Shown: positions 7,207-60,391, counted from the first letter of the stretch. The stretch is 64,000 bases of DNA from Nanobdellota archaeon (GCA_038044925.1 JBBSZC010000004.1:11166-75165); one strand, 5' to 3'. The notes: a model not told the origin generated them from the sequence alone. Program-made: numbers and translations.

Positions 7207-8304
7207 TTACTCCAAAAATTCAATCCCTAACTCTTCTTCAATCTCTTTGTGCCTTCTATCCTCAAGACTATCTCCTTGTCCGACGATCTGAGAGCTCTTT
7301 ACGCCTGTGACAATCAATAAAACCCTGATAGATTTTTCCATATCTTCTGAAATCTGCGCACCCCAAATCATTTTTGCATCAGGAGATAATTTATTTCCAA
7401 CTGTTTCAATTATTGATTTGCATTCATCTAAGCTCATATCAGATCCTCCAATTATATTTATTAGAGCGCCTGTTGCATCTGAAATATCCACATCCAGCAA
7501 AGGATTTTGAATTGCCTTTTCAACAGCTTCTGTTGCCCTATTTTGAGAATCTGATTCTCCCATGCCTATTAAAGAAACTCCTCCATCTATCATTATTGCT
7601 TTTATGTCTGCAAAATCCAGATTTACAAGACCTGATTTTGTTACCAATTCTGTTGTACCTTTTACGGCATTTGTTAGAATTTCGTCTGCAATTTTAAATG
7701 CAGTATGTAACGGCAGTTCAGGAGCTAATTCCAGCAGTTTATCATTAGGAATTACTATTAATGTATCAACACTATCCTGCATTCTCTCTAAACCATTCAT
7801 TGCATTTTCGATTCTTTTTCTTCCTTCTATTGAAAATGGAAGCGTAACAATTCCAATTACTAGAGCTCCTTGTTTTTTTGCTATTTCAGCGATTATTGGA
7901 GCAGCGCCTGTTCCTGTTCCCCCCCCTAATCCGCAGGTAATAAATATCATGTCGCTTCCTAAAAGTTTTTTCTTTATTTCTGACTCTGATTCTTTTGCTG
8001 CTTCTGCCCCTATCTTTGGATTGCTTCCTGCTCCTAAACCCTGAGTTAATTCTCTTCCAATTAAAATTTTTTGGTCTGCATTAGCGTATAATAGATCCTG
8101 GGCATCTGTGTTCACTGCTATAAGTTCCCCTCCTTTAATCCCTATTTCCCTCATTCTGGAAAGAGAATTATTCCCTCCGCCTCCAACACCTATAACTTTT
8201 ATTTTTGCGTTTTGTTTTTTTAGTAATTCTTCTAATTCCTTATCTATTTCACTGACATTTGAAGAAATATCTATTCTGTGTTCATCCCTTTGTACAACTG
8301 CCAT
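7207..8304 (-). CDS. ftsZ: cell division GTPase FtsZ
   Basis: IGVGGGGNN, tubulin signature GGGTGTGAAPIIAEIAK. Confidence 0.9.
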   Translation of the reverse strand: MAVVQRDEHRIDISSNVSEIDKELEELLKKQNAKIKVIGVGGGGNNSLSRMREIGIKGGELIAVNTDAQDLLYANADQKILIGRELTQGLGAGSNPKIGAEAAKESESEIKKKLLGSDMIFITCGLGGGTGTGAAPIIAEIAKKQGALVIGIVTLPFSIEGRKRIENAMNGLERMQDSVDTLIVIPNDKLLELAPELPLHTAFKIADEILTNAVKGTTELVTKSGLVNLDFADIKAIMIDGGVSLIGMGESDSQNRATEAVEKAIQNPLLDVDISDATGALINIIGGSDMSLDECKSIIETVGNKLSPDAKMIWGAQISEDMEKSIRVLLIVTGVKSSQIVGQGDSLEDRRHKEIEEELGIEFLE

Positions 8305-27946: not shown

Positions 27947-28082
27947 CGCCCCCACGAGGATTTGAACCTCGGTCTCAACCTTCTTACTTTATCTCCTTGA
28001 AATCTAGGAGAGGTAGTGTCAGGAGAACCTTGGTTCTCCCACATCCGCAAGGTCGTGTTCTATCCAACTGAACTATAGGGGC
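27947..28082 (-). tRNA. tRNA-Arg (anticodon GCG) with an intron of about 63 nt
   Basis: Reverse complement: acceptor GCCCCTA/TGGGGGC, D arm GTTC-AGTTGGATA-GAAC, anticodon stem CGACC/GGTTG, loop TTGCGG plus spliced-in A, T arm CGAGGTTCAAATCCTCG, discriminator G. Confidence 0.6.
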
Positions 28083-35655: not shown

Positions 35656-36378
35656 ATGAATTTTATAAAAAAGGTATTTGACAAGAAAGTTGATGAAATT
35701 GTACATATACAATTTAAAAAATTTAGCAGGGGGAAATTTATAGACAAGGCTGTTATAAAAGCAAAAAGAGATGGCAAAGGAAACTTTACTATAATTACGA
35801 CTTATGAGTTTGCTAATGATCTCGTTAGAGATGTTGCAGAAAAATTAGGAAATATTAAAACTAATGTTAAAGGGGTTCTTGTTTCCACAAATGATTTGAC
35901 AGGAGAGCTGGATTTTAATAGCAAGAAGCAATTCATAGGGGTTAAGCAATATAGAATAGATAAAGAAATGACTGGAAATGAAATAATTGGCATTTTAAAC
36001 AAATTTCCAAAAGCTTTTTTTGCCTTGAGTTTTAATGTTGATTCTGGAGGAAATTCAACTGAATTAAAAATAAAAGAAAAGGCTCCAAAGTCTGCTAAAC
36101 CCAGCAATAAGACAGATGAGAAACCTAATCCTGATTTTTGTAAACTTAAAACATCGGATAAAGAACTTGCAGAGAGTTTTGTTTTTGAAAAAATGGATTT
36201 TAAATTAGCAGAGATAAGCCATGATTTTATAATTAAAGAGATAGTAATTCCTGAAGAGCTGAAAAAAGAGAATGACTTTGCAAAGATAAGAGAGTTTTCA
36301 AGAAGAAGGGGGGTTGTGATAAGGAAAGCGATTATTGATGGCAGGGAAATAAGAAGAGAGATTGATTTTGAGGTGTGA
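35656..36378 (+). CDS. hypothetical protein
   Basis: 240-aa ORF convergent with the RT gene. Confidence 0.3.
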   Translation: MNFIKKVFDKKVDEIVHIQFKKFSRGKFIDKAVIKAKRDGKGNFTIITTYEFANDLVRDVAEKLGNIKTNVKGVLVSTNDLTGELDFNSKKQFIGVKQYRIDKEMTGNEIIGILNKFPKAFFALSFNVDSGGNSTELKIKEKAPKSAKPSNKTDEKPNPDFCKLKTSDKELAESFVFEKMDFKLAEISHDFIIKEIVIPEELKKENDFAKIREFSRRRGVVIRKAIIDGREIRREIDFEV

Positions 36379-36403: not shown

Positions 36404-37455
36404 TTAAAGGGAGCTAGGGATGGGTGCATAAATAGCTTTTACAACATTCCTCCTTAACTTAAAGCTATTAGCCCACTTTGCATAGGCGTTCCAACCATTA
36501 AAACTTTCTAATAGTTTTTCCTTACTTAATTCTCCGCTTTTGTGTTGTCTTATTCTGAATATTATATTTCTTAAATTTTTCTTTCTTAACAAGTTATAGT
36601 GATAGAATTTTCTAAACCCTACAAAATCAATTCCTCTTGATAGAGGAATTATTTTAGATTTCTGAGAATGTAGTTCTAGCTTTAATTTTTCTTTCAATAA
36701 TCTGTTTATTTGCTCTTTCCACACTTCTAGTTGTTCCTTAGAATTATGAAGAATAACAAAATCATCTACATATCTAATATAATATCTAGCCCGTAACTTA
36801 TTCTTAACAAACCAATCCAATTCGTGAAGATAAACGTTGGCGAAGAATTGGGAGGTTAGATTGCCGAGAGGCATTCCTTTCTCGCAAAAACTCGTTCGCC
36901 CCCCCCCCCGAACGAGTTCGGGCTGTTATTAAGAATCTGACCAATCAACCAAATAACTTTTTTATCTTTAATCTTTCTGCTTAAAATTTCTATTAAAATC
37001 TTGTAATTAACTTCTTTAAAATAATGCTTTATGTCTGCTTTCAAACAAAAGGAAATTCTGCTATTGTTTTTAGTAACTTTTCTCTGAAATAATTCAAATC
37101 TTTTAAGTGCAAATAAATTCCCCTTTCCTACTCTGTTCGCACAAGAATCATAAATAAAAGATTTGTCAAAAAGTGGCTCAATTATTCTAACAACTGCATG
37201 ATGAACTATTCTATCGGGAAAGGCAGACTTTGAAATTTTGCGGGTTTTTGGGTCTCTTAACACAAAGTTCTTTAGAGGTTCTGGCTTATATGTCTGATTT
37301 TTTAGCTTATCTGACAAGCTGATTAGATTTTTAAATAAATTAGCTTCAAATTCAATAACATAGTTCTTTTTAGTCTTGCCTTTTCTTGCTTTTCTCCAAG
37401 CAAGAATTAAGTTAGACAAATTATAAATCTGCTCATATAAGTTATTAGTTTCCAT
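36404..37455 (-). CDS. DGR-type reverse transcriptase, split into two ORFs (37455-36856 and 36874-36404) by a frameshift inside a G11 homopolymer
   Basis: N-terminal LILAWRKARKGK; motif 3 ADIKHYFKEV; motif 4 KGMPLGNLTSQFFANVYLHELD; motif 5 YVDDFVI; adding one G (12 instead of 11) gives continuous ...NSFGGGGRTSFCEKGMPLGN... Confidence 0.8.
36891..36917. repeat. C11 (G11 on the coding strand) homopolymer flanked by a 10-bp inverted repeat, AACTCGTTCG-C(n)-CGAACGAGTT, inside the RT gene
   Basis: 11 consecutive C at 36899-36909 in a roughly 29% GC genome; flanking arms perfectly complementary. Confidence 0.85.
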
Positions 37456-37484
37456 AATAAGTATAAAGTCTTAGGAGTTAGAGC

Positions 37485-37576
37485 TATTCCAGACGCATAA
37501 CCATACTCGACATCAGCATGGTAGTTGCCATTGACATTCAACCTGTCACCATTCCAGTTCGAATTCACCGCGGATA
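37485..37576 (-). other. DGR template repeat (TR)
   Basis: About 89-nt repeat of the VR; at all 13 mismatches TR has A on the coding strand; TR codons AAT/AAC dominate. Confidence 0.85.
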
Positions 37577-37746
37577 GTTATGTAGCCAGTTTACCTTCCT
37601 ATCACTGAAATTCCTCGTAAGGAAAATCTGTATTTTATGACTTAAAATAAAATCAAATATGTCTTGATAAATTGGCATGTAGCCCTAGCTTATCGCTAAG
37701 ACAAAAATTAACTAAAATAAGAATTAATAAACCTTTACTTATTTTT

Positions 37747-38442
37747 TTACGAAGCGCCTTCGGCGCTTTTTGGCAATACCCCAGACGCAAAACCATACCC
37801 GACATCAGCATGGTAGTAGCCATGGACATACAACCTGACACCAAGCCAGTCCGAATCCACCGCGGTATATTTTTTCAAATCTCTATTTTGAGAGTCTAAA
37901 GCACCAACATAAGGTGCTTTTCTGCTTATTTTTTCAGCAACTCTTGCTACAACATCTTCAGCGAAATCTTTATCTGTAACTTGTCCAATTATATAAGAAT
38001 TTGCAACTAAATCTGAAACTGACTGGTTTCCTGTCTTAAATCCATATTTAACTAATCTTACTGCCTTATCTCCATCTTTCATTCTTTTTATTAAACTTGC
38101 CCTATCTGTTGGCATAGTTCCATCAATATTATCATAAAGAATAACATCTTCTTTTCCCCATAAATTCTCAGTAGTCGTCAATAGCCATTGGTTTTTTACT
38201 CTGGAAACTATATCCTTGCATTGTTTATTATCTGGATTGCTTAATGCAAAATCTATTAAAGAAAATGTCTGGGCAGTTGTAGGTCTTAGTAATTTTCCTT
38301 TTGTAATTGCACCCATAACTTTTTGGTGAGTTCCTGGTCCTTCAAGAGGATAAGCACTTGTTAAAATCCCATTTCCGTGCTTATAATCCATTTCGGTTCT
38401 AGCTATTCTTATTCTTCCACCATTTAGTTCTTTAGTTATCAT
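37747..38442 (-). CDS. DGR target (variable) protein with C-terminal VR; N-terminal domain of unknown family
   Basis: 231-aa ORF; the last roughly 40 aa are encoded by the VR; no obvious signal peptide. Confidence 0.75.
   Translation of the reverse strand: MITKELNGGRIRIARTEMDYKHGNGILTSAYPLEGPGTHQKVMGAITKGKLLRPTTAQTFSLIDFALSNPDNKQCKDIVSRVKNQWLLTTTENLWGKEDVILYDNIDGTMPTDRASLIKRMKDGDKAVRLVKYGFKTGNQSVSDLVANSYIIGQVTDKDFAEDVVARVAEKISRKAPYVGALDSQNRDLKKYTAVDSDWLGVRLYVHGYYHADVGYGFASGVLPKSAEGAS
37750..37773 (-). promoter_or_regulatory. GC-rich stem-loop (7-bp stem AAGCGCC/GGCGCTT, 4-nt loop) 8 nt downstream of the VR
   Basis: Perfect GC-rich hairpin in an AT-rich context, at the position of the homing-enhancing hairpin of characterised DGRs. 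Confidence 0.5.
37777..37868 (-). other. DGR variable repeat (VR) encoding the C-terminus of the target protein
   Basis: See TR; VR reads ...TAVDSDWLGVRLYVHGYYHADVGYGFASGV versus TR SAVNSNWNGDRLNVNGNYHADVEYGYASGI. Confidence 0.85.
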
Positions 38443-39733: not shown

Positions 39734-40551
39734 ATGAAAAAATAAATGTTTTAGATATTCAAGGAAAGAAAATAAAAGAAATTGAGATGCCTGAATTTTT
39801 CAAGCAGAAAATAAGAGAAGATATAATCTCTAAAATAATAGAATCAAGAAAATCAAAACAGCCTTATGCTCCTTCACCTGTTGCAGGAAAACAGCACTCT
39901 GCTTCAGGACTAATAAGACACAGAAGACATGTCTGGAAAACTCATTATGGGCAGGGAAGGTCAAGAATTCCAAGAAAAATAATTTCTAAGAAAGGAAACA
40001 GAATAAACTGGATTGGGGCTGAAATTCCATCTACTAGGGGAGGTAGAAGAGCGCATCCTCCTAGAGTTGAAGGAACCATTAATGCTAATAAAATAAACAG
40101 AAAAGAATTGAGAATCGCCTTGCTGTCTGCTTTAAGTGCAAGTGCAAACCCAAAAGAAATAAAAAAGAAATATGAAAATTTAAGAGAAAAAAATATTAAT
40201 GCTCCGTTTGTTGTGGACGGAAAAATAACAGAATTGAAAACAAAGGAAGTTGTAGAAACCTTAGGAAAGGTTTTGGGGGAGGCTTTTGGTGCTGCTATTT
40301 CAAAAAAATCAATAAGAGCTGGAAAAGGAAAGCGAAGAGGGAGAAAATACAAAGAAACAGCAGGAGCCTTAATTGTTTTAGGAAACAGCGAAAAAATAAA
40401 AACAAATATTATTGAAAGCAAGAATGTTTCAAACCTTAATGTTATTGATTTATCTAATGGTGGACAAGGAAAATTAACAATTTATACTGAAAATGCAATT
40501 AAAGATTTAAATGAAAGGCTTAATAAAACTAAGGAGGAAAAAGAAAAATGA
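39730..40551 (+). CDS. rpl4: ribosomal protein L4 (uL4)
   Basis: Family similarity and position. Confidence 0.85.
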   Translation: MNEKINVLDIQGKKIKEIEMPEFFKQKIREDIISKIIESRKSKQPYAPSPVAGKQHSASGLIRHRRHVWKTHYGQGRSRIPRKIISKKGNRINWIGAEIPSTRGGRRAHPPRVEGTINANKINRKELRIALLSALSASANPKEIKKKYENLREKNINAPFVVDGKITELKTKEVVETLGKVLGEAFGAAISKKSIRAGKGKRRGRKYKETAGALIVLGNSEKIKTNIIESKNVSNLNVIDLSNGGQGKLTIYTENAIKDLNERLNKTKEEKEK

Positions 40552-41225
40552 TATCTTTAGATATAGAAACAAGTGGAATTGATATGTCTTGTTGTGGAAT
40601 TTGGCAGATTGGTGCACTAGAAATAGAAAATCCAGAAAATGTCTTTTTGCAGGAAGCACGAATTGATGCTTTAGATATTATTGAACCAGAAGCTCTAGTT
40701 GTTACAGAAAAAACCGAAGAAGAATTAAGAAGTAGGGGAAAACAATCTCAAAGAGGATTAATACAAAGTTTTCTAGAGTGGAGGGGGTTTTGTGAAGTAA
40801 AGACCGCATTATGCCACAATCCGCAATTTGATATTGGATTTATAACTCTTAAATCTTTAAAATATTTTAAAAAAGATCCATTTTGGCCAATCTATCATAG
40901 AGCATTTGATTTGCATACTCTCGCACAACAAAGATATTTTCAAGAAAATGGAAGATTTTTAATTGATGGGGATCATAGCGATATGGGTTTATCTAAAATA
41001 TTAAAATTTGTGGGAATAGAAGATAAAAGAAGAGCAATTAAAGATGGAAAAGTAGAAAGAGAAGGCAACCCCCATAACGCATTAGAAGATGCAAAATTAA
41101 CTGCAGAATGCTTTTCAAGATTAATTTATGGAAAAACCATTTTTCCAGAATATACTAAATTTAAAGTTCCAGAATATCTATTAAATCCAAGAATAAAGAA
41201 TAAAAATGAAACCAATTATTACTGA
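40548..41225 (+). CDS. DEDDh 3'-5' exonuclease (DnaQ/RNase T-like) embedded between L4 and L23
   Basis: Exo I LDIETSG, Exo II HNPQFDIGFI, Exo III HNALEDA; overlaps both neighbours. Confidence 0.75.
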   Translation: MISLDIETSGIDMSCCGIWQIGALEIENPENVFLQEARIDALDIIEPEALVVTEKTEEELRSRGKQSQRGLIQSFLEWRGFCEVKTALCHNPQFDIGFITLKSLKYFKKDPFWPIYHRAFDLHTLAQQRYFQENGRFLIDGDHSDMGLSKILKFVGIEDKRRAIKDGKVEREGNPHNALEDAKLTAECFSRLIYGKTIFPEYTKFKVPEYLLNPRIKNKNETNYY

Positions 41226-52077: not shown

Positions 52078-53554
52078 GGCTGATTTAAGAAATATATTTA
52101 ACTTCATTCCAGAAGTTACAAAACCCGAGGAAAAAAAATTAAGTTTTAATACTAAACTTAAGTGGACTCTTGTGATATTAGTCGCTTTTTTTGTTCTTGC
52201 TAATGTTCCTCTTTATGGATTGTCAAATAATGCCCTCGAGAGATTTAAATACTTAGCTATAATCCTTGGAACAGATTTTGGAAGTATTATTTCTTTAGGT
52301 ATTGGCCCTATAGTTATGGCTTCTATTATACTGCAGTTATTAACTGGTGCAGAAATTTTAAAGATAGATACATCTTCAGAAGAAGGAAGAAAATTTTTCC
52401 AAGGAATTCAAAAATTATTAGTTTTATTTTTCATAATCTTTGAAGCATTGGTTTATGTATTAATGCAAGGACTTCAAGCAATGCCTGGATTAGCTCCTAT
52501 AGTTATAGCTCAATTAATTTTAGGAGGATTAGCAATCTTTTATATGGATGAAGTTACAACTAAATGGGGATTTGGTTCAGGAGTTAGTCTATTTATTGGA
52601 GCAGGAGTTTCATGGAGATTAATCACCTCAGCATTCCAGTTTATAAATCAGCAAGGAGAAAATTGCCTTTTGAATTTTTCTGGGACTGCTTGCAGCGGTA
52701 AGTTTTTTGTAATGATACAATCCATAATAAATAATGCTCCTACAGAATTTATATCTGCATTAGCTGCTGTTCTTGTAACAGCTATAATATTTTTAATTAT
52801 TGTATGGGTTCAGTCTTTAAAGGTTGAAATTCCTTTAAGTTTTGGAAGAATAAGGGGCTATTCTGTCAAGTGGCCTTTATCATTTTTTTATGCTTCTGTT
52901 ATTCCAGTAATATTAACTGCAGCATTAATTGCAAATTTGCAGTTGCTTGGAGGAATAGTAGAAAATGCTGCTTCCATCTGCATTAATCCAGAAATTGCAT
53001 CTAATATAACAAATGCAACAATTTCTGAAGGATGTACAGGAATAGCAAAGGTATCTTCGTATTTCACTTTTTTAGGGCATTTTATTAATGGGCAAGCAGT
53101 TTCAGGTTTTGCTTTCTGGTTAGGTTCCACTGATATTTTGCAATTGACTCTAAAGGGGGGGTTTTTGTGGATATATCTGCTTCAATCAATAACGCATATA
53201 TTCTTTTTTGTTTTGTTTTCAACAGTGTTTGCTATATTTTGGGTTAAAACATCTGGAATGGATTCAAAGGCGCAAGCAAATAAAATAGCTGCGTCTGGGC
53301 TGCAAATTGCTGGATTCAGACAAGATAATAGGGTTTTAGAAAGTATATTAGACAGGTACATCATGCCTTTAACAGTGATGGGAGGAATTGCCGTTGGTTT
53401 ATTGGCTGCTATTAGTGATTTATTAGGTGCTTTGGTTGGAGGAACTGCAATACTGCTAGTTATTATGATAATGTTCCAGTTCTACCAGAATATTGCTAAA
53501 GAGCACCAAGTAGATATGAATCCTTCTGTAAGAAAATTTATTAGCGGTGCATGA
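52076..53554 (+). CDS. secY: preprotein translocase SecY
   Basis: 10-TM SecY family; follows L15. Confidence 0.9.
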   Translation: MADLRNIFNFIPEVTKPEEKKLSFNTKLKWTLVILVAFFVLANVPLYGLSNNALERFKYLAIILGTDFGSIISLGIGPIVMASIILQLLTGAEILKIDTSSEEGRKFFQGIQKLLVLFFIIFEALVYVLMQGLQAMPGLAPIVIAQLILGGLAIFYMDEVTTKWGFGSGVSLFIGAGVSWRLITSAFQFINQQGENCLLNFSGTACSGKFFVMIQSIINNAPTEFISALAAVLVTAIIFLIIVWVQSLKVEIPLSFGRIRGYSVKWPLSFFYASVIPVILTAALIANLQLLGGIVENAASICINPEIASNITNATISEGCTGIAKVSSYFTFLGHFINGQAVSGFAFWLGSTDILQLTLKGGFLWIYLLQSITHIFFFVLFSTVFAIFWVKTSGMDSKAQANKIAASGLQIAGFRQDNRVLESILDRYIMPLTVMGGIAVGLLAAISDLLGALVGGTAILLVIMIMFQFYQNIAKEHQVDMNPSVRKFISGA

Positions 53555-57634: not shown

Positions 57635-60391
57635 ATGGACATTGAAAGCCTTTCTGAAAAAGAAGTAATAGAACAAAGAAAAAAGAGTATAAACGAGTTT
57701 CTAACTAAAAAAAAGCAATGGATTTATTATCTAATTCTTTCCTTAATTATATTTTTGGGGGTGTATATAAGAACTCTAAATATTTCAAAATTAAAAGATA
57801 TAACAACAGGAACCTGGACATTAGGACCTGATTTAGATCCTTTTCTTTTTTTAAGGTGGGCAAAAGAAATAGTAGAAAATGGAAGCTTAATGACTCATGA
57901 TATAATGAGATATGTTCCTTTAGGATATGATACTGCTGGAGAGATGAAATTGCTAGCTTATATGATAGCGTGGTTTCATAATATACTTTCATTCTTCCCT
58001 CTTACAGATAATGTTACTTATTCTGCAATAATATTTCCTGTAGCAATGTTTGCTTTAACCACAATTGCTTTCTTTTTATTTGCTAGGAAAATATTCTTTA
58101 AAGAATCAGATTTGATAAAAAATTCAATCGCTTTAATAGCAACATTATTATTCGTTTTAGTTCCTTCTTTACTTCCTAGGACAATTGCTGGAATTCCTGA
58201 AAAAGAATCTGTCGCTTTTTTCTTTATGTTTATGGCTTTTTATTTCTTTATTAGTGCTTTCACAAGTGAAAAAAGAAATAAATCATTTATATTATCTGTA
58301 CTTGCTGGAATTTCGACAGGACTAATGGCTTTGGTTTGGGGGGGAGTTATATTTATTTTCTTTACAATACCTGGAGCTGTTTTCTTATCCTTTATTTTAG
58401 GAAAAGTTGGGAAAAAAGAATTAATATGCTATGGTATGTGGGTTTTTTCATCCTTTGCTATAATGATGCCTTTTTCCACAAGATATACTTTATGGAATTT
58501 AGCAATATCTACCTCTACTGGTTTTGGATTAGGAATATTAATAATACTTTTATTCAGCTTACTTTTCTATAAAGATAAAAAAATAGAAAAATTAGAAGAA
58601 AAAACCAAAATTCCTAGAGAAATCTTACTTGCCCTAATCTTTTCATTGATTATGCTTATAGTAATATCAATAATTTTGGGTCCTGGGTTTATCTTAGGGC
58701 AAATAAATGAAATTCAAAATAATTTAATAGAGCCATCTTCAACAAGGTTTAGTTTTACTGTAGCTGAAAACAAACAACCCTACTTTAATAATGATTGGAA
58801 AGATAATTTCGGGCCAATTTTGTATAATATTCCTATTTATTTTTGGCTTTTCTTTTTTGGCTCAGTTCTTTTATTTTTTAATATGATCTCTGCATTAGGC
58901 AAAAAAGAGAAATTAAAATTAACTATCGGATATATATTATTTTTAATATGCTTAATATTCAGCAGATATTCAGCATCTAGTATATTTAATGGGGTAAATG
59001 GGACAAGCATTGTTACTTATTTTGCCGGGTGGATAATCTTAATATATTTATCAGCAGAGACTTATTATAAAAATTTTAAAAAAGAAAAATTAGAAGTTTT
59101 TAAGAAATTTAATTTTGCATATATATTATATTTTATAATATTAACTTTAGGAATTATTGGGGCTAGGGGAGGTATAAGGCTTATTATGGTGCTTGGATCA
59201 ATAAGCCCCATAGCAGTTTCTTTTTTAATAGTCAAGACAATAAACAAGTCATTTAAAGAAAAAAAAGAAAGCAGTGAAGAAGCTAAAAATGAAGATAGTA
59301 AAATTTTAATGAAATTTATAGCAGTAGTTTTTATATTACTTTCTGCTTTTATAGTATATAATTATTATATTTTAGATAAATCCAATGCTGAAAACTTTGC
59401 CCCCGGAGCATATCAATGGCAATGGCAAGAAGCAATGTCTTGGGTTAGAAGCAACACATCTCAAAATGCTGTTTTTGCACACTGGTGGGATTATGGCTAT
59501 TGGGTTCAGTCTATTGGAGAAAGAGCAACAATATTAGACGGGGGAAATGCAATAGTATACTGGGATTATTTAATGGGAAGATATGTATTAACAGAGCCAG
59601 ATGATTCTAAAACTTTAGAATTTTTATATACCCATAATGCGACTCATCTATTAATTGATTCAACTGAAATTGGAAAATATACTGCATTTTCAAGCATAGG
59701 CTCTGATGAAAATTATGATAGATTTTCATGGATATCAATATTTTTGTTAGAGGAGGGAAAAATAACAGAAACTGGCAATAAAACTATTTATCTATATTCT
59801 GGAGGAAGTGCGACTGATGAAGATATTGTGTGGAAAGAAAATAATAATGAAATTTTCCTTCCTGCAAAAAAAACAATTGTGGGCGGGGTAATATTACAAT
59901 TAGATCAAAAAGGAAAATTTTCTCAGCCACAAGCAGCATATTTCTATCAAAACAAGCAATATAATATTCCTCTAAAATATCTTTATGTTGAAAAAGACCA
60001 AAAAATAACTACTTTTGATTCTGGTTTAGAGGCAGGAATATTTTTATTCCCAAAAATTAATGTTGATGCTGATAATAAAGCTGGAATTAATTATTATGGC
60101 GCTTCTTTATATTTAAGCAGGCGTACAATAAACTCTAAGATAGCACAATTATACTTATTCGATAAAAAAACAGATTCTTTTAAAATAACCCATATTGAAA
60201 GCAATCAGATAATAAACTCATTAAAGGGGCAGGGTACAGATTTAAAAGAATTTATATATTATAGTGGATTTCAAGGTCCGATTAAAATTTGGGAAATAAA
60301 TTACCCCAGCACAATTAAAGCAAACCCTGAATACTTAAAAACAGATTATCCAAATAAGTCCATAGAGATAGCTAAACCTGGAGAATATTAA
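57635..60391 (+). CDS. aglB: oligosaccharyltransferase AglB (STT3)
   Basis: WWDYGYWV motif, 13 N-terminal TMs; start taken at ATG 57635. Confidence 0.85.
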   Translation: MDIESLSEKEVIEQRKKSINEFLTKKKQWIYYLILSLIIFLGVYIRTLNISKLKDITTGTWTLGPDLDPFLFLRWAKEIVENGSLMTHDIMRYVPLGYDTAGEMKLLAYMIAWFHNILSFFPLTDNVTYSAIIFPVAMFALTTIAFFLFARKIFFKESDLIKNSIALIATLLFVLVPSLLPRTIAGIPEKESVAFFFMFMAFYFFISAFTSEKRNKSFILSVLAGISTGLMALVWGGVIFIFFTIPGAVFLSFILGKVGKKELICYGMWVFSSFAIMMPFSTRYTLWNLAISTSTGFGLGILIILLFSLLFYKDKKIEKLEEKTKIPREILLALIFSLIMLIVISIILGPGFILGQINEIQNNLIEPSSTRFSFTVAENKQPYFNNDWKDNFGPILYNIPIYFWLFFFGSVLLFFNMISALGKKEKLKLTIGYILFLICLIFSRYSASSIFNGVNGTSIVTYFAGWIILIYLSAETYYKNFKKEKLEVFKKFNFAYILYFIILTLGIIGARGGIRLIMVLGSISPIAVSFLIVKTINKSFKEKKESSEEAKNEDSKILMKFIAVVFILLSAFIVYNYYILDKSNAENFAPGAYQWQWQEAMSWVRSNTSQNAVFAHWWDYGYWVQSIGERATILDGGNAIVYWDYLMGRYVLTEPDDSKTLEFLYTHNATHLLIDSTEIGKYTAFSSIGSDENYDRFSWISIFLLEEGKITETGNKTIYLYSGGSATDEDIVWKENNNEIFLPAKKTIVGGVILQLDQKGKFSQPQAAYFYQNKQYNIPLKYLYVEKDQKITTFDSGLEAGIFLFPKINVDADNKAGINYYGASLYLSRRTINSKIAQLYLFDKKTDSFKITHIESNQIINSLKGQGTDLKEFIYYSGFQGPIKIWEINYPSTIKANPEYLKTDYPNKSIEIAKPGEY

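What the first reader, a model, noticed from the sequence alone, without database searches (positions are those of the whole stretch)
36404..38442. Complete diversity-generating retroelement (target-VR / TR / RT) next to the main ribosomal protein operon
The minus strand carries the canonical DGR layout. A 231-aa target gene has its last roughly 40 codons in a variable repeat (VR, 37777-37868). A cognate template repeat (TR, 37485-37576) lies 200 nt downstream. A reverse transcriptase follows, with the DGR-typical N-terminus LILAWRKARKGK and YVDDFVI. No avd-like accessory gene fits in the 200-nt VR-TR spacer. The cassette is divergent from the L3 operon start, 350 bp away. DGRs are known in a few DPANN lineages, so the class is not new. 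This cassette, its target protein family, and its apparent on/off switch (see the homopolymer finding) are worth characterising.
Basis: partly seen in the sequence, partly recalled or inferred. Interest (0 to 1): 0.9.

Follow-up and report, generated by a model that had tools for sequence, protein, structure and literature searches.

The report
Archaeal DGR with frameshifted reverse transcriptase
This is a genuine protein-diversifying retroelement of the kind already known to be common in tiny DPANN archaea, but its reverse transcriptase gene is broken by an 11-G run in every available assembly, so it is probably switched off or recently dead.

Summary

The cassette is not intact as assembled. 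An 11-G tract (36899-36909), the loop of a 10-bp hairpin, splits the RT into 199-aa and 156-aa ORFs. Three independent assemblies agree on 11 G. One also carries a K29* nonsense SNP. No in-frame allele exists in a 15-billion-protein collection, and the VR is identical in five assemblies. Verdict: a new member of a known kind, with an RT that is probably off. The on/off switch idea remains untested.

The parts
37747..38442 (-). Target (variable protein) gene, 231 aa, with an AvpA-like C-type lectin fold
37777..37865 (-). Variable repeat (VR), codons 193-222 of the target
   Evidence: 89-nt repeat with 12 of 12 mismatches at TR adenines. The same columns are hypervariable in the family alignment.
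37777..37789 (-). IMH-like invariant 3' end of the VR (TGCGTCTGGGGTA); the TR has GGAATA here
   Evidence: The VR reads GGGG and the TR reads GGAA in the window and in the close relatives that carry a TR, L166, L167 and L170. Assigning it as the IMH is an inference by analogy with the Bordetella phage DGR (PMC5758913).
37753..37767 (.). GC-rich inverted repeat AGCGCC-GAA-GGCGCT, 9 nt after the VR, inside the target ORF tail (it encodes SAEGA)
   Evidence: Invariant in 6 relatives. Folding gives -8.1 kcal/mol, z -2.5. An equivalent GC hairpin follows the VR in 59 of 83 related loci, 36 of them with a GAA loop and with co-varying stems, and follows the TR in 0 of 83.
37724..37731 (-). TATA-like box TTTATTAA, centred about 26 nt upstream of the RT-16 5' end (inferred archaeal promoter for the RT-16-TR-RT transcript)
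   Evidence: AAAGrTTTATTAATTCT is conserved in WIN, L166, L167, L169 and L170. Promoter function is inferred and was not tested.
37577..37701 (-). RT-16 RNA (Rfam RF03019), a structured RNA that ends 4 nt before the TR
   Evidence: 62.7 bits against a gathering score of 50, E 2.7e-9, full-length model match. Present in 36 of 38 related loci. Its 3' end lies -4 to +4 nt from the TR start in 34 of 34 loci.
37485..37573 (-). Template repeat (TR)
   Evidence: It has 23 adenines. About 20 lie in the mutable part, which allows about 5.6e11 protein variants. It is conserved among relatives while the VR varies.
36404..37455 (-). DGR-type reverse transcriptase gene, split into ORFs 37455-36856 (199 aa) and 36874-36404 (156 aa)
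   Evidence: Both halves hit RVT_1. The repaired protein is most similar to PDB 8ub7_A, a 328-aa chain labelled only 'Reverse transcriptase' that I take from memory to be the BPP-1 bRT, at E 1.8e-38; group II RTs score about 1e-21. It carries the LGNLTSQ motif. It has more than 7000 homologues, 64-74% identical among the best 120 and mostly from DPANN. dN/dS is 0.06 against L166.
36899..36909 (-). 11-G homopolymer that breaks the RT frame (9 or 12 G would be in frame)
   Evidence: Three independent assemblies also show 11 G. Only the 11-G protein products are on record.
36889..36918 (-). Perfect 10-bp hairpin AACTCGTTCG-G10-CGAACGAGTT, followed by TTT (T5 in all), in the RT loop just before motif 4
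   Evidence: Folding gives -10.4 kcal/mol, z -2.7. The consensus scan flags it as terminator-like. The Gn-CGAAC core recurs at this spot in 14-21 of 152 relatives.

Best explanation
This is a chromosomal, Avd-less DGR of the type common in DPANN archaea.

Layout on the minus strand, in order:
- the target gene with a C-terminal VR;
- a GC hairpin with a GAA loop;
- a TATA-like box;
- the RT-16 structured RNA;
- the TR;
- the RT gene.

Inferred mechanism, by analogy with the Bordetella phage DGR:
1. A transcript starting at RT-16 carries RT-16, the TR and the RT message.
2. The RT copies the TR into cDNA and misincorporates opposite adenines.
3. The cDNA replaces the VR. It is guided by the IMH-like end of the VR and by the adjacent GC hairpin, which mark the VR as the recipient.
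4. RT-16 always ends where TR/VR homology begins. It is probably the RNA scaffold or boundary element that the RT recognises in place of an Avd protein.

The target is an AvpA-like C-type lectin-fold binding protein that can display about 5.6e11 variants.

In the sampled Hainich groundwater population the RT cannot be translated full length. An 11-G tract in a finger loop puts the catalytic half out of frame. The element has clearly worked in the past: there are 12 A-only differences and no non-A drift. It is now off. The cause is either recent inactivation or the OFF state of a slippage-prone tract.
For: Shown:
- A-only TR/VR mismatches.
- The RT is closest to the BPP-1 DGR RT and carries LGNLTSQ.
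- The CLec/AvpA fold.
- A GC hairpin after the VR and never after the TR: 59/83 versus 0/83.
- RT-16 scores above its gathering score. It is present in 36/38 relatives and abuts the TR in 34/34.
- The same layout, with no ORF of 60 aa or more in the gap, in the typical 207-530 nt VR-TR gaps; 83/155 loci have a detectable TR/VR pair.
- 11 G in three assemblies, and K29* in one.
- No in-frame allele on record.
- The VR is identical in five assemblies.
- RT dN/dS of 0.06 shows long-term function.
- 0 of 66 non-A TR positions differ from the VR, so any inactivation is recent.

From the literature: Avd-less 'architecture A' makes up 29% of DGRs (PMC5758913). AvpA also has the hairpin inside its ORF tail (PMC5006420).
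Against: - No reads were available. Long G runs are hard to sequence: relatives' contigs break or fold back exactly at this tract, so a count of 11 could be a systematic error for 12.
- Transcriptional slippage on an 11-G run could still yield some full-length RT.
- The role of RT-16 and the position of the promoter are inferred only from position and conservation.
- Identical consensus VRs do not exclude low-frequency variants.
Confidence: 0.8

Rival explanations
1. The G tract is a true contingency locus. Slipped-strand mispairing reversibly switches the RT, and so mutagenic homing, between ON (9 or 12 G) and OFF (10, 11, 13 or 14 G). The sampled population happens to be OFF.
For: - An 11-G run is extreme for a 30% GC genome and is the longest in the window.
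- G runs of 8-11 sit at the same RT loop in 16 of 149 relatives.
- A close relative has 14 G.
- The Gn-CGAAC core is read in all three frames in different homologues, which implies past slips followed by compensation.
- Frame breaks occur only in long-run loci: 2/16 versus 0/133.
Against: - All three assemblies show the same length, and no ON allele is on record.
- 14 of the 16 long-run loci are in frame, as expected for any tolerated Gly loop.
- The K29* allele points to decay rather than regulated switching.
- The locus set is biased towards intact genes.
Confidence: 0.25
2. The frameshift is a sequencing or assembly error. The real tract has 12 G, and the DGR is intact and active.
For: Assemblies of relatives break at the tract (L167) or fold back through the palindrome (L166). 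L021 has an N gap right after its G9 tract. Illumina length calls degrade in long G runs (general knowledge).
Against: - Three assemblies, including two replicate filters, agree on 11.
- Relatives with 9-11 G assemble in frame, so such runs are usually called correctly.
- An independent nonsense SNP in the same gene and an invariant VR fit a non-functional RT.
Confidence: 0.2
3. Full-length RT is made despite the 11 G, by programmed +1 ribosomal frameshifting or by RNA polymerase slippage on the G run. The hairpin plus T5 would act as a pause or attenuator that sets a low RT dose.
For: The homopolymer sits in the loop of a stable 10-bp hairpin followed by T5, and the scan flags it as terminator-like. 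The 11-G and 14-G alleles fall in the same frame class.
Against: Other relatives with long runs are simply in frame. The 5' arm of the hairpin is conserved in only 2-3 of 152 loci. There is no known slippery heptamer. No expression data exist.
Confidence: 0.1

Closest known systems
Nanoarchaeota/DPANN DGRs with the AvpA variable protein (Paul et al. 2015, 2017; Handa et al. 2016, PMC5006420; PDB 5IOO)
   Different: Identity to AvpA is only 14%, and there is no HMM-level sequence match. The tail after the VR is 9 residues here, against 46 in AvpA. No Avd-like protein is encoded in the cassette. The RT is frameshifted.
Bordetella phage BPP-1 DGR (mtd-avd-TR-brt)
   Same: Both show adenine-specific TR-to-VR information transfer. 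The RT here is most similar to bRT (E 1.8e-38). Both have a fixed IMH/IMH*-like difference at the repeat's 3' end and a GC hairpin downstream of the VR only.
   Different: There is no avd. The structured RNA (RT-16) is 5' of the TR, whereas in BPP-1 the RT-10/Sp element is 3' of the TR (PMC5737381). The TR-RT linker is only about 30 nt. The element is chromosomal and archaeal, not on a phage. The RT has an extra loop of about 13 aa before motif 4.
DGR 'architecture A1' (target-TR-RT, no accessory gene) of Wu et al. 2018 (PMC5758913)
   Same: The gene order is the same and accessory genes are absent. In that survey this architecture makes up 29% of DGRs.
   Different: That survey does not describe an RNA element in the VR-TR spacer. 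Here the spacer is filled by RT-16.
Rfam RF03019 RT-16 RNA (Weinberg et al. 2017, PMC5737381)
   Same: The match is full length and above the gathering score.
   Different: The family was published as an orphan motif 'near RT genes'. Here and in 36/38 relatives it sits directly against the 5' end of a DGR TR. In the window copy the first hairpin is shortened and an inner stem is replaced by a UACG-loop hairpin.
Poly-G contingency loci of Campylobacter, Neisseria and Haemophilus (phase variation by slipped-strand mispairing)
   Same: A long G run lies inside an ORF, and its length decides the reading frame.
   Different: No within-population length polymorphism and no ON allele were seen here. 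The organism is an archaeon, and the gene is a retroelement RT rather than a surface or modification gene. No paper in the searched library links DGRs to homopolymer switching.

Membership tests
Diversity-generating retroelement | TR/VR near-repeat whose differences fall at TR adenines | tested here: met
   12 of 12 mismatches fall at TR adenines in 89 nt, P 5.7e-9.
Diversity-generating retroelement | RT belonging to the DGR RT group, not group II intron, retron or DRT | tested here: met
   The best PDB match is 8ub7_A (labelled only 'Reverse transcriptase'; identified as BPP-1 bRT from memory) at E 1.8e-38, against about 1e-21 for group II RTs. The LGNLTSQ motif is present; that [LIV]GxxxSQ marks DGR RTs is from my own knowledge. 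The group II, retron and Drt NCBIfam models all score far below their cut-offs. No full phylogeny was built.
Diversity-generating retroelement | Intact, translatable RT gene | tested here: not met
   The 11-G tract splits the ORF. The same holds in 3 assemblies, and one also has K29*.
Diversity-generating retroelement | VR at the end of a target ORF in a variability-tolerant fold (CLec or Ig) | tested here: met
Diversity-generating retroelement | IMH in the VR versus IMH* in the TR | tested here: inconclusive
   There is a fixed GG (VR) versus AA (TR) difference, and the flanks diverge, conserved in relatives. Function was not tested.
Diversity-generating retroelement | GC-rich inverted repeat downstream of the VR (optional) | tested here: met
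   AGCGCC-GAA-GGCGCT at 37753-37767. It follows the VR in 59/83 relatives and the TR in 0/83.
Diversity-generating retroelement | Avd accessory protein (present in about 74% of DGRs) | tested here: not met
   No ORF of 60 aa or more lies in the VR-TR gap here or in relatives with gaps of 207-530 nt. The rest of the genome was not searched with an Avd profile.
Diversity-generating retroelement | Ongoing VR diversification in the population | not testable with these tools
   No reads were available. The consensus VR is identical in 5 assemblies, and per-run Logan contigs do not break at the VR.
AvpA-like archaeal variable proteins | Sequence-level homology to AvpA | tested here: not met
   A profile of 37 family members finds no AvpA chain at E up to 10. 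The similarity is structural only.
Rfam RT-16 RNA (RF03019) | Covariance-model score at or above the gathering threshold | tested here: met
   62.7 bits against 50, covering model positions 1-158.
Phase-variable contingency locus | Tract-length polymorphism with both ON and OFF alleles in one population | tested here: not met
   All 3 assemblies have 11 G. Exact look-up finds only the 11-G products. Between relatives, 11 and 14 G are seen. Read-level data are needed.

The most novel reading that the evidence does not exclude
The G-tract hairpin in the RT finger loop, which recurs in about 10% of this RT clade and is read in all three frames across lineages, could be a selected slip-strand switch or attenuator. 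DPANN archaea would use it to turn DGR hypermutation on and off heritably. The orphan RNA RT-16 would be the Avd-replacing RNA cofactor that defines the TR boundary.
Probability: 0.2. Interest if true: 0.65.

Novelty: new member of a known kind. Interest (0 to 1): 0.35.

Why it matters
The element itself adds only one more DGR to a lineage in which they are abundant. Two side results are useful.

1. The orphan Rfam motif RT-16 gets a concrete address. It sits flush against the 5' end of the TR in Avd-less DPANN DGRs. That makes it a testable candidate for the RNA element that lets these RTs work without Avd.

2. The RT genes of this clade carry a recurrent, slippage-prone G run in a tolerant loop. 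This run breaks assemblies, splits gene calls (NCBI annotates two proteins here), and could bias surveys of DGR 'activity'. If it proved to be a real switch, it would be the first example of phase-variable control of a DGR.

Tried and rejected
- Pfam and NCBIfam gave nothing for the target or for orf240.
- A sequence profile of the target family against the PDB found no true hit.
- I looked for an avd-sized ORF in the VR-TR gap of 83 relatives and found none in normal-sized gaps.
- I looked for extra VRs in the window and found none.
- I tested whether the whole G-tract hairpin is conserved. Only the Gn-CGAAC core is (14-21 of 152 loci); the 5' arm is not (2-3 of 152). So I dropped the idea of a clade-wide conserved RNA hairpin or mobile palindrome. 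The stem sequence is also unique in the window.
- I considered orf240 (35656-36378) as a DGR accessory gene. It co-occurs with the RT in only 3 of 155 loci, two of those together with the AI-2E transporter gene, so this is chromosomal synteny.
- The idea of loop inversion (poly-C instead of poly-G) rests on one DNA example, L081, plus a few PPP-containing proteins. It is left unexplained.
- Literature searches for DGR plus homopolymer phase variation, and for RT-16, found nothing relevant. Paul et al. 2017 was not available in the library.
- The sigma-70 promoter scan is irrelevant for an archaeon and was at the chance level.

Full report
**Source and context.** The window has 30% GC. Its 231-aa target protein is 100% identical to NCBI 'AABX30_01225, Nanoarchaeota archaeon'. 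The same stretch lies on contig CAYIHG010000001.1 of MAG GCA_964363295.1. It also lies on independently assembled contigs from Hainich groundwater well H43. The cassette sits on the minus strand. On one side are an AI-2E transporter gene and a 240-aa ORF. On the other side is the archaeal L3-L4-L23-L2 ribosomal operon, which starts 349 nt from the target start and runs divergently.

**Checking the observation.**
- An ungapped 89-nt repeat links VR 37777-37865 and TR 37485-37573.
- There are 12 mismatches, and all 12 lie at TR adenines. The TR has 23 adenines, so the hypergeometric P is 5.7e-9.
- In the target's reading frame the TR carries AAT or AAC at six variable codons. None of the 66 non-adenine positions differs.
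- About 20 adenines are mutable, which allows about 5.6e11 protein variants.
- The last two differences (TR AA, VR GG at 37779-37780) are the same in every close relative. I read them as a fixed IMH/IMH* distinction and not as mutagenesis.
- There is no second VR in the 64 kb window.

**The target.**
- It has no Pfam or NCBIfam match.
- The word-indexed search found 38 homologues. The exhaustive profile search found 463 clusters at 50% identity, nearly all 190-290 aa long.
- The family alignment shows a conserved first 190 residues or so. It then shows a C-terminal block in which scaffold residues (W, RL, G, G-x-A-S-G-V) are fixed and the TR-adenine codons are hypervariable.
- AlphaFold2 with this alignment gives pLDDT 91.8 and pTM 0.90.
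- A sequence profile does not reach AvpA. The target is therefore AvpA-like in fold but belongs to a separate sequence family.
- As reported for AvpA (PMC5006420), the GC inverted repeat lies inside the ORF tail.

**The hairpin after the VR.** AGCGCC-GAA-GGCGCT (37753-37767) is invariant in six relatives that are otherwise 77-86% identical in DNA. It folds at -8.1 kcal/mol. In related DGR loci a GC-rich hairpin follows the VR in 59 of 83 cases, 36 of them with a GAA loop and with stems that differ in sequence. It follows the TR in 0 of 83. This is the arrangement that marks the recipient site in the Bordetella phage DGR (PMC5758913).

**The RT.**
- Both ORF halves match RVT_1.
- Inserting one G gives a 350-aa protein. 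Its best solved relative is 8ub7_A, a 328-aa chain that the tool labels only 'Reverse transcriptase' and that I take from memory to be the BPP-1 DGR RT. The match is E 1.8e-38 and spans nearly the whole protein. Group II intron RTs score about 1e-21.
- It carries LGNLTSQ in motif 4, and YVDDF.
- The NCBIfam models for group II, retron and Drt RTs all fall far below their cut-offs.
- More than 7000 homologues exist. The best 120 are 64-74% identical, and the named ones come from Pacearchaeota, Woesearchaeota or Nanoarchaeota.

**Layout in the clade.**
- A simple detector found an adenine-specific TR/VR pair in 83 of 155 related loci. The TR lies typically 25-35 nt upstream of the RT start, and the VR typically 207-530 nt upstream of the TR.
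- Gaps of this size never hold an ORF of 60 aa or more.
- The Avd-less order target-VR/TR/RT is therefore the norm for this clade. It matches 'architecture A' of Wu et al., which makes up 29% of DGRs (PMC5758913).

**The spacer is not empty.**
- Rfam finds RF03019 (RT-16 RNA) at 37577-37701 on the minus strand: 62.7 bits against a gathering score of 50, with a full-length model match. It is the only such hit in the window.
- RT-16 was published as one of 19 orphan motifs 'near RT genes'. Only RT-10 was tied to a DGR (PMC5737381).
- I found RT-16 in 36 of 38 related loci scanned.
- In all 34 loci with a mapped TR, its 3' end lies -4 to +4 nt from the first TR base.
- Close relatives conserve the spacer better than the coding DNA. 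They also show a compensatory C-G to U-A change in a small UNCG-loop hairpin.
- A TATA-like TTTATTAA (37724-37731) is centred about 26 nt upstream of the RT-16 5' end and is conserved in relatives. I infer that the DGR transcript starts at RT-16.

**The G tract.**
- The RT frame is broken by 11 G (36899-36909). Only 9 or 12 G would restore it.
- The run forms the loop of a perfect 10-bp hairpin followed by T5 (-10.4 kcal/mol, z -2.7). It lies in a loop just before motif 4 that is about 13 residues longer than in bRT.
- Three independent assemblies show exactly 11 G: the MAG contig L161, L162 from replicate R2 and L163 from replicate R3.
- L162 differs from the MAG at only two positions in 6.7 kb. 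Both are in the RT. One (37371 A>T) turns codon 29 into a stop.
- Exact-sequence look-up in a collection of about 15 billion proteins finds only the two 11-G products. It finds none of the 8-, 9-, 10-, 12-, 13-, 14- or 15-G products.
- The VR is identical in five assemblies, and the per-run Logan contigs do not break at it.
- The RT was under strong purifying selection until recently: dN/dS is 0.06 against the 82%-identical relative L166, and 0.20 for the target. The VR also shows no non-adenine drift.
- The simplest reading is that the RT was recently switched off or inactivated.

**Is the tract a switch?**
- Runs of 8-11 G, and in one case 8 C, occur at the same loop in 16 of 149 related loci.
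- The core Gn-CGAAC is found there in 14-21 of 152 loci. Flanking loop 14-mers are found in 1-9 loci, and the hairpin's 5' arm in 2-3. A 14-mer test gave 17/153 at the site against 1/1215 in control windows.
- Different lineages read this core in all three frames: G-R-T-S-F, G-E-R-V-F and A-N-E-F. This implies repeated slips followed by compensation.
- A close relative from well H51 has 14 G, and its contig then folds back through the palindrome. The replicate contig ends exactly at the tract.
- Frame breaks between motifs 3 and 4 occur only in long-run loci: 2 of 16 (one of them next to an N gap) against 0 of 133.
- These facts show that the tract is unstable over evolutionary time and troublesome for assembly. 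They do not show regulated ON/OFF switching. No ON allele and no within-population length variation were seen, and the locus set is biased towards intact genes.
- I found no paper linking DGRs to homopolymer phase variation.

**Comparison and verdict.**
- Every defining DGR feature that could be tested is met, except an intact RT and the optional Avd.
- The closest known system is the Nanoarchaeota AvpA-type DGR. Mechanistically it should work like the Bordetella phage element, but without Avd and with a 5'-flanking RNA (RT-16) in place of the phage's 3'-flanking one.
- This is a new member of a known kind.
'Complete' and 'on/off switch' are not established.
- Moderate interest comes from the RT-16/TR link and from the recurrent G-run hot spot.

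Noticed in passing
window 37371 and 36875 (versus L162): The replicate assembly L162 differs from the MAG at only two sites in 6.7 kb. Both are A>T changes inside the RT gene. One creates a stop at codon 29; the other is synonymous in the repaired frame.
   Followed up: yes
L166 262-1161, L167 138-1037, L170 360-1259: In the closest relatives (about 82% nt identity), an IS240/IS6-family DDE transposase gene lies 38 nt upstream of the target gene, where the window has the L3 operon. The cassette therefore sits in different genomic contexts, possibly after IS-mediated movement.
   Followed up: partly
L168 1472-2170: A target homologue (78% aa identity) keeps the GC hairpin but has no RT-16, TR or RT downstream; a convergent gene follows at once. 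It may be an orphan or remote target.
   Followed up: no
L081, about 60-25 nt upstream of the GMPLGN codons: The closest full-length RT relative has a C8 run flanked by TTCG/GAAC, nested in a longer 15-bp hairpin with the same outer arms (AAACTCGTTC...GAACGAGTTT). Several protein homologues have PPP(P) where others have GGG(G). This looks like inversion of the hairpin loop and is unexplained.
   Followed up: partly
L166 last 90 nt; L167 3' end; L021 around its N gap: Assemblies break, fold back into reverse-complement RT sequence, or are scaffolded with Ns exactly at the G-tract palindrome. This is a systematic assembly hazard in this RT clade.
   Followed up: yes
window 35656-36378 (+): A 240-aa ORF convergent with the RT has no family match. 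Homologues lie directly downstream of the RT in L004 (53%), L062 (39%) and L018 (31%); in L004 and L062 an AI-2E transporter gene is next to them. This is conserved chromosomal synteny rather than a DGR accessory gene.
   Followed up: partly
window 40548-41225 (+): A 225-aa ORF with a weak RNase_T/DEDD exonuclease match sits inside the ribosomal protein operon, between L4 and L23. A 124-aa unannotated ORF lies between L23 and L2 (gene table of L161).
   Followed up: no
window 27947-28082 (-): The tRNA hit spans 136 nt against a 71-nt model, which suggests an intron-containing archaeal tRNA.
   Followed up: no
window 7919-7926, 53155-53161, 58338-58344: These are the other G/C homopolymers in this 30% GC window: C8, G7 and G7. 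All are much shorter than the 11-G run in the RT.
   Followed up: no
L019 552-3587: Another relative has L3 and L4 genes directly downstream of its DGR RT on the same strand. DGRs therefore sit beside the ribosomal operon in at least two lineages, in different arrangements.
   Followed up: no
L167 versus L166, TR position 15: Replicate assemblies of the H51 relative differ at one TR base (A versus G), where the VR has G. This is either a TR polymorphism or TR/VR cross-assembly.
   Followed up: no
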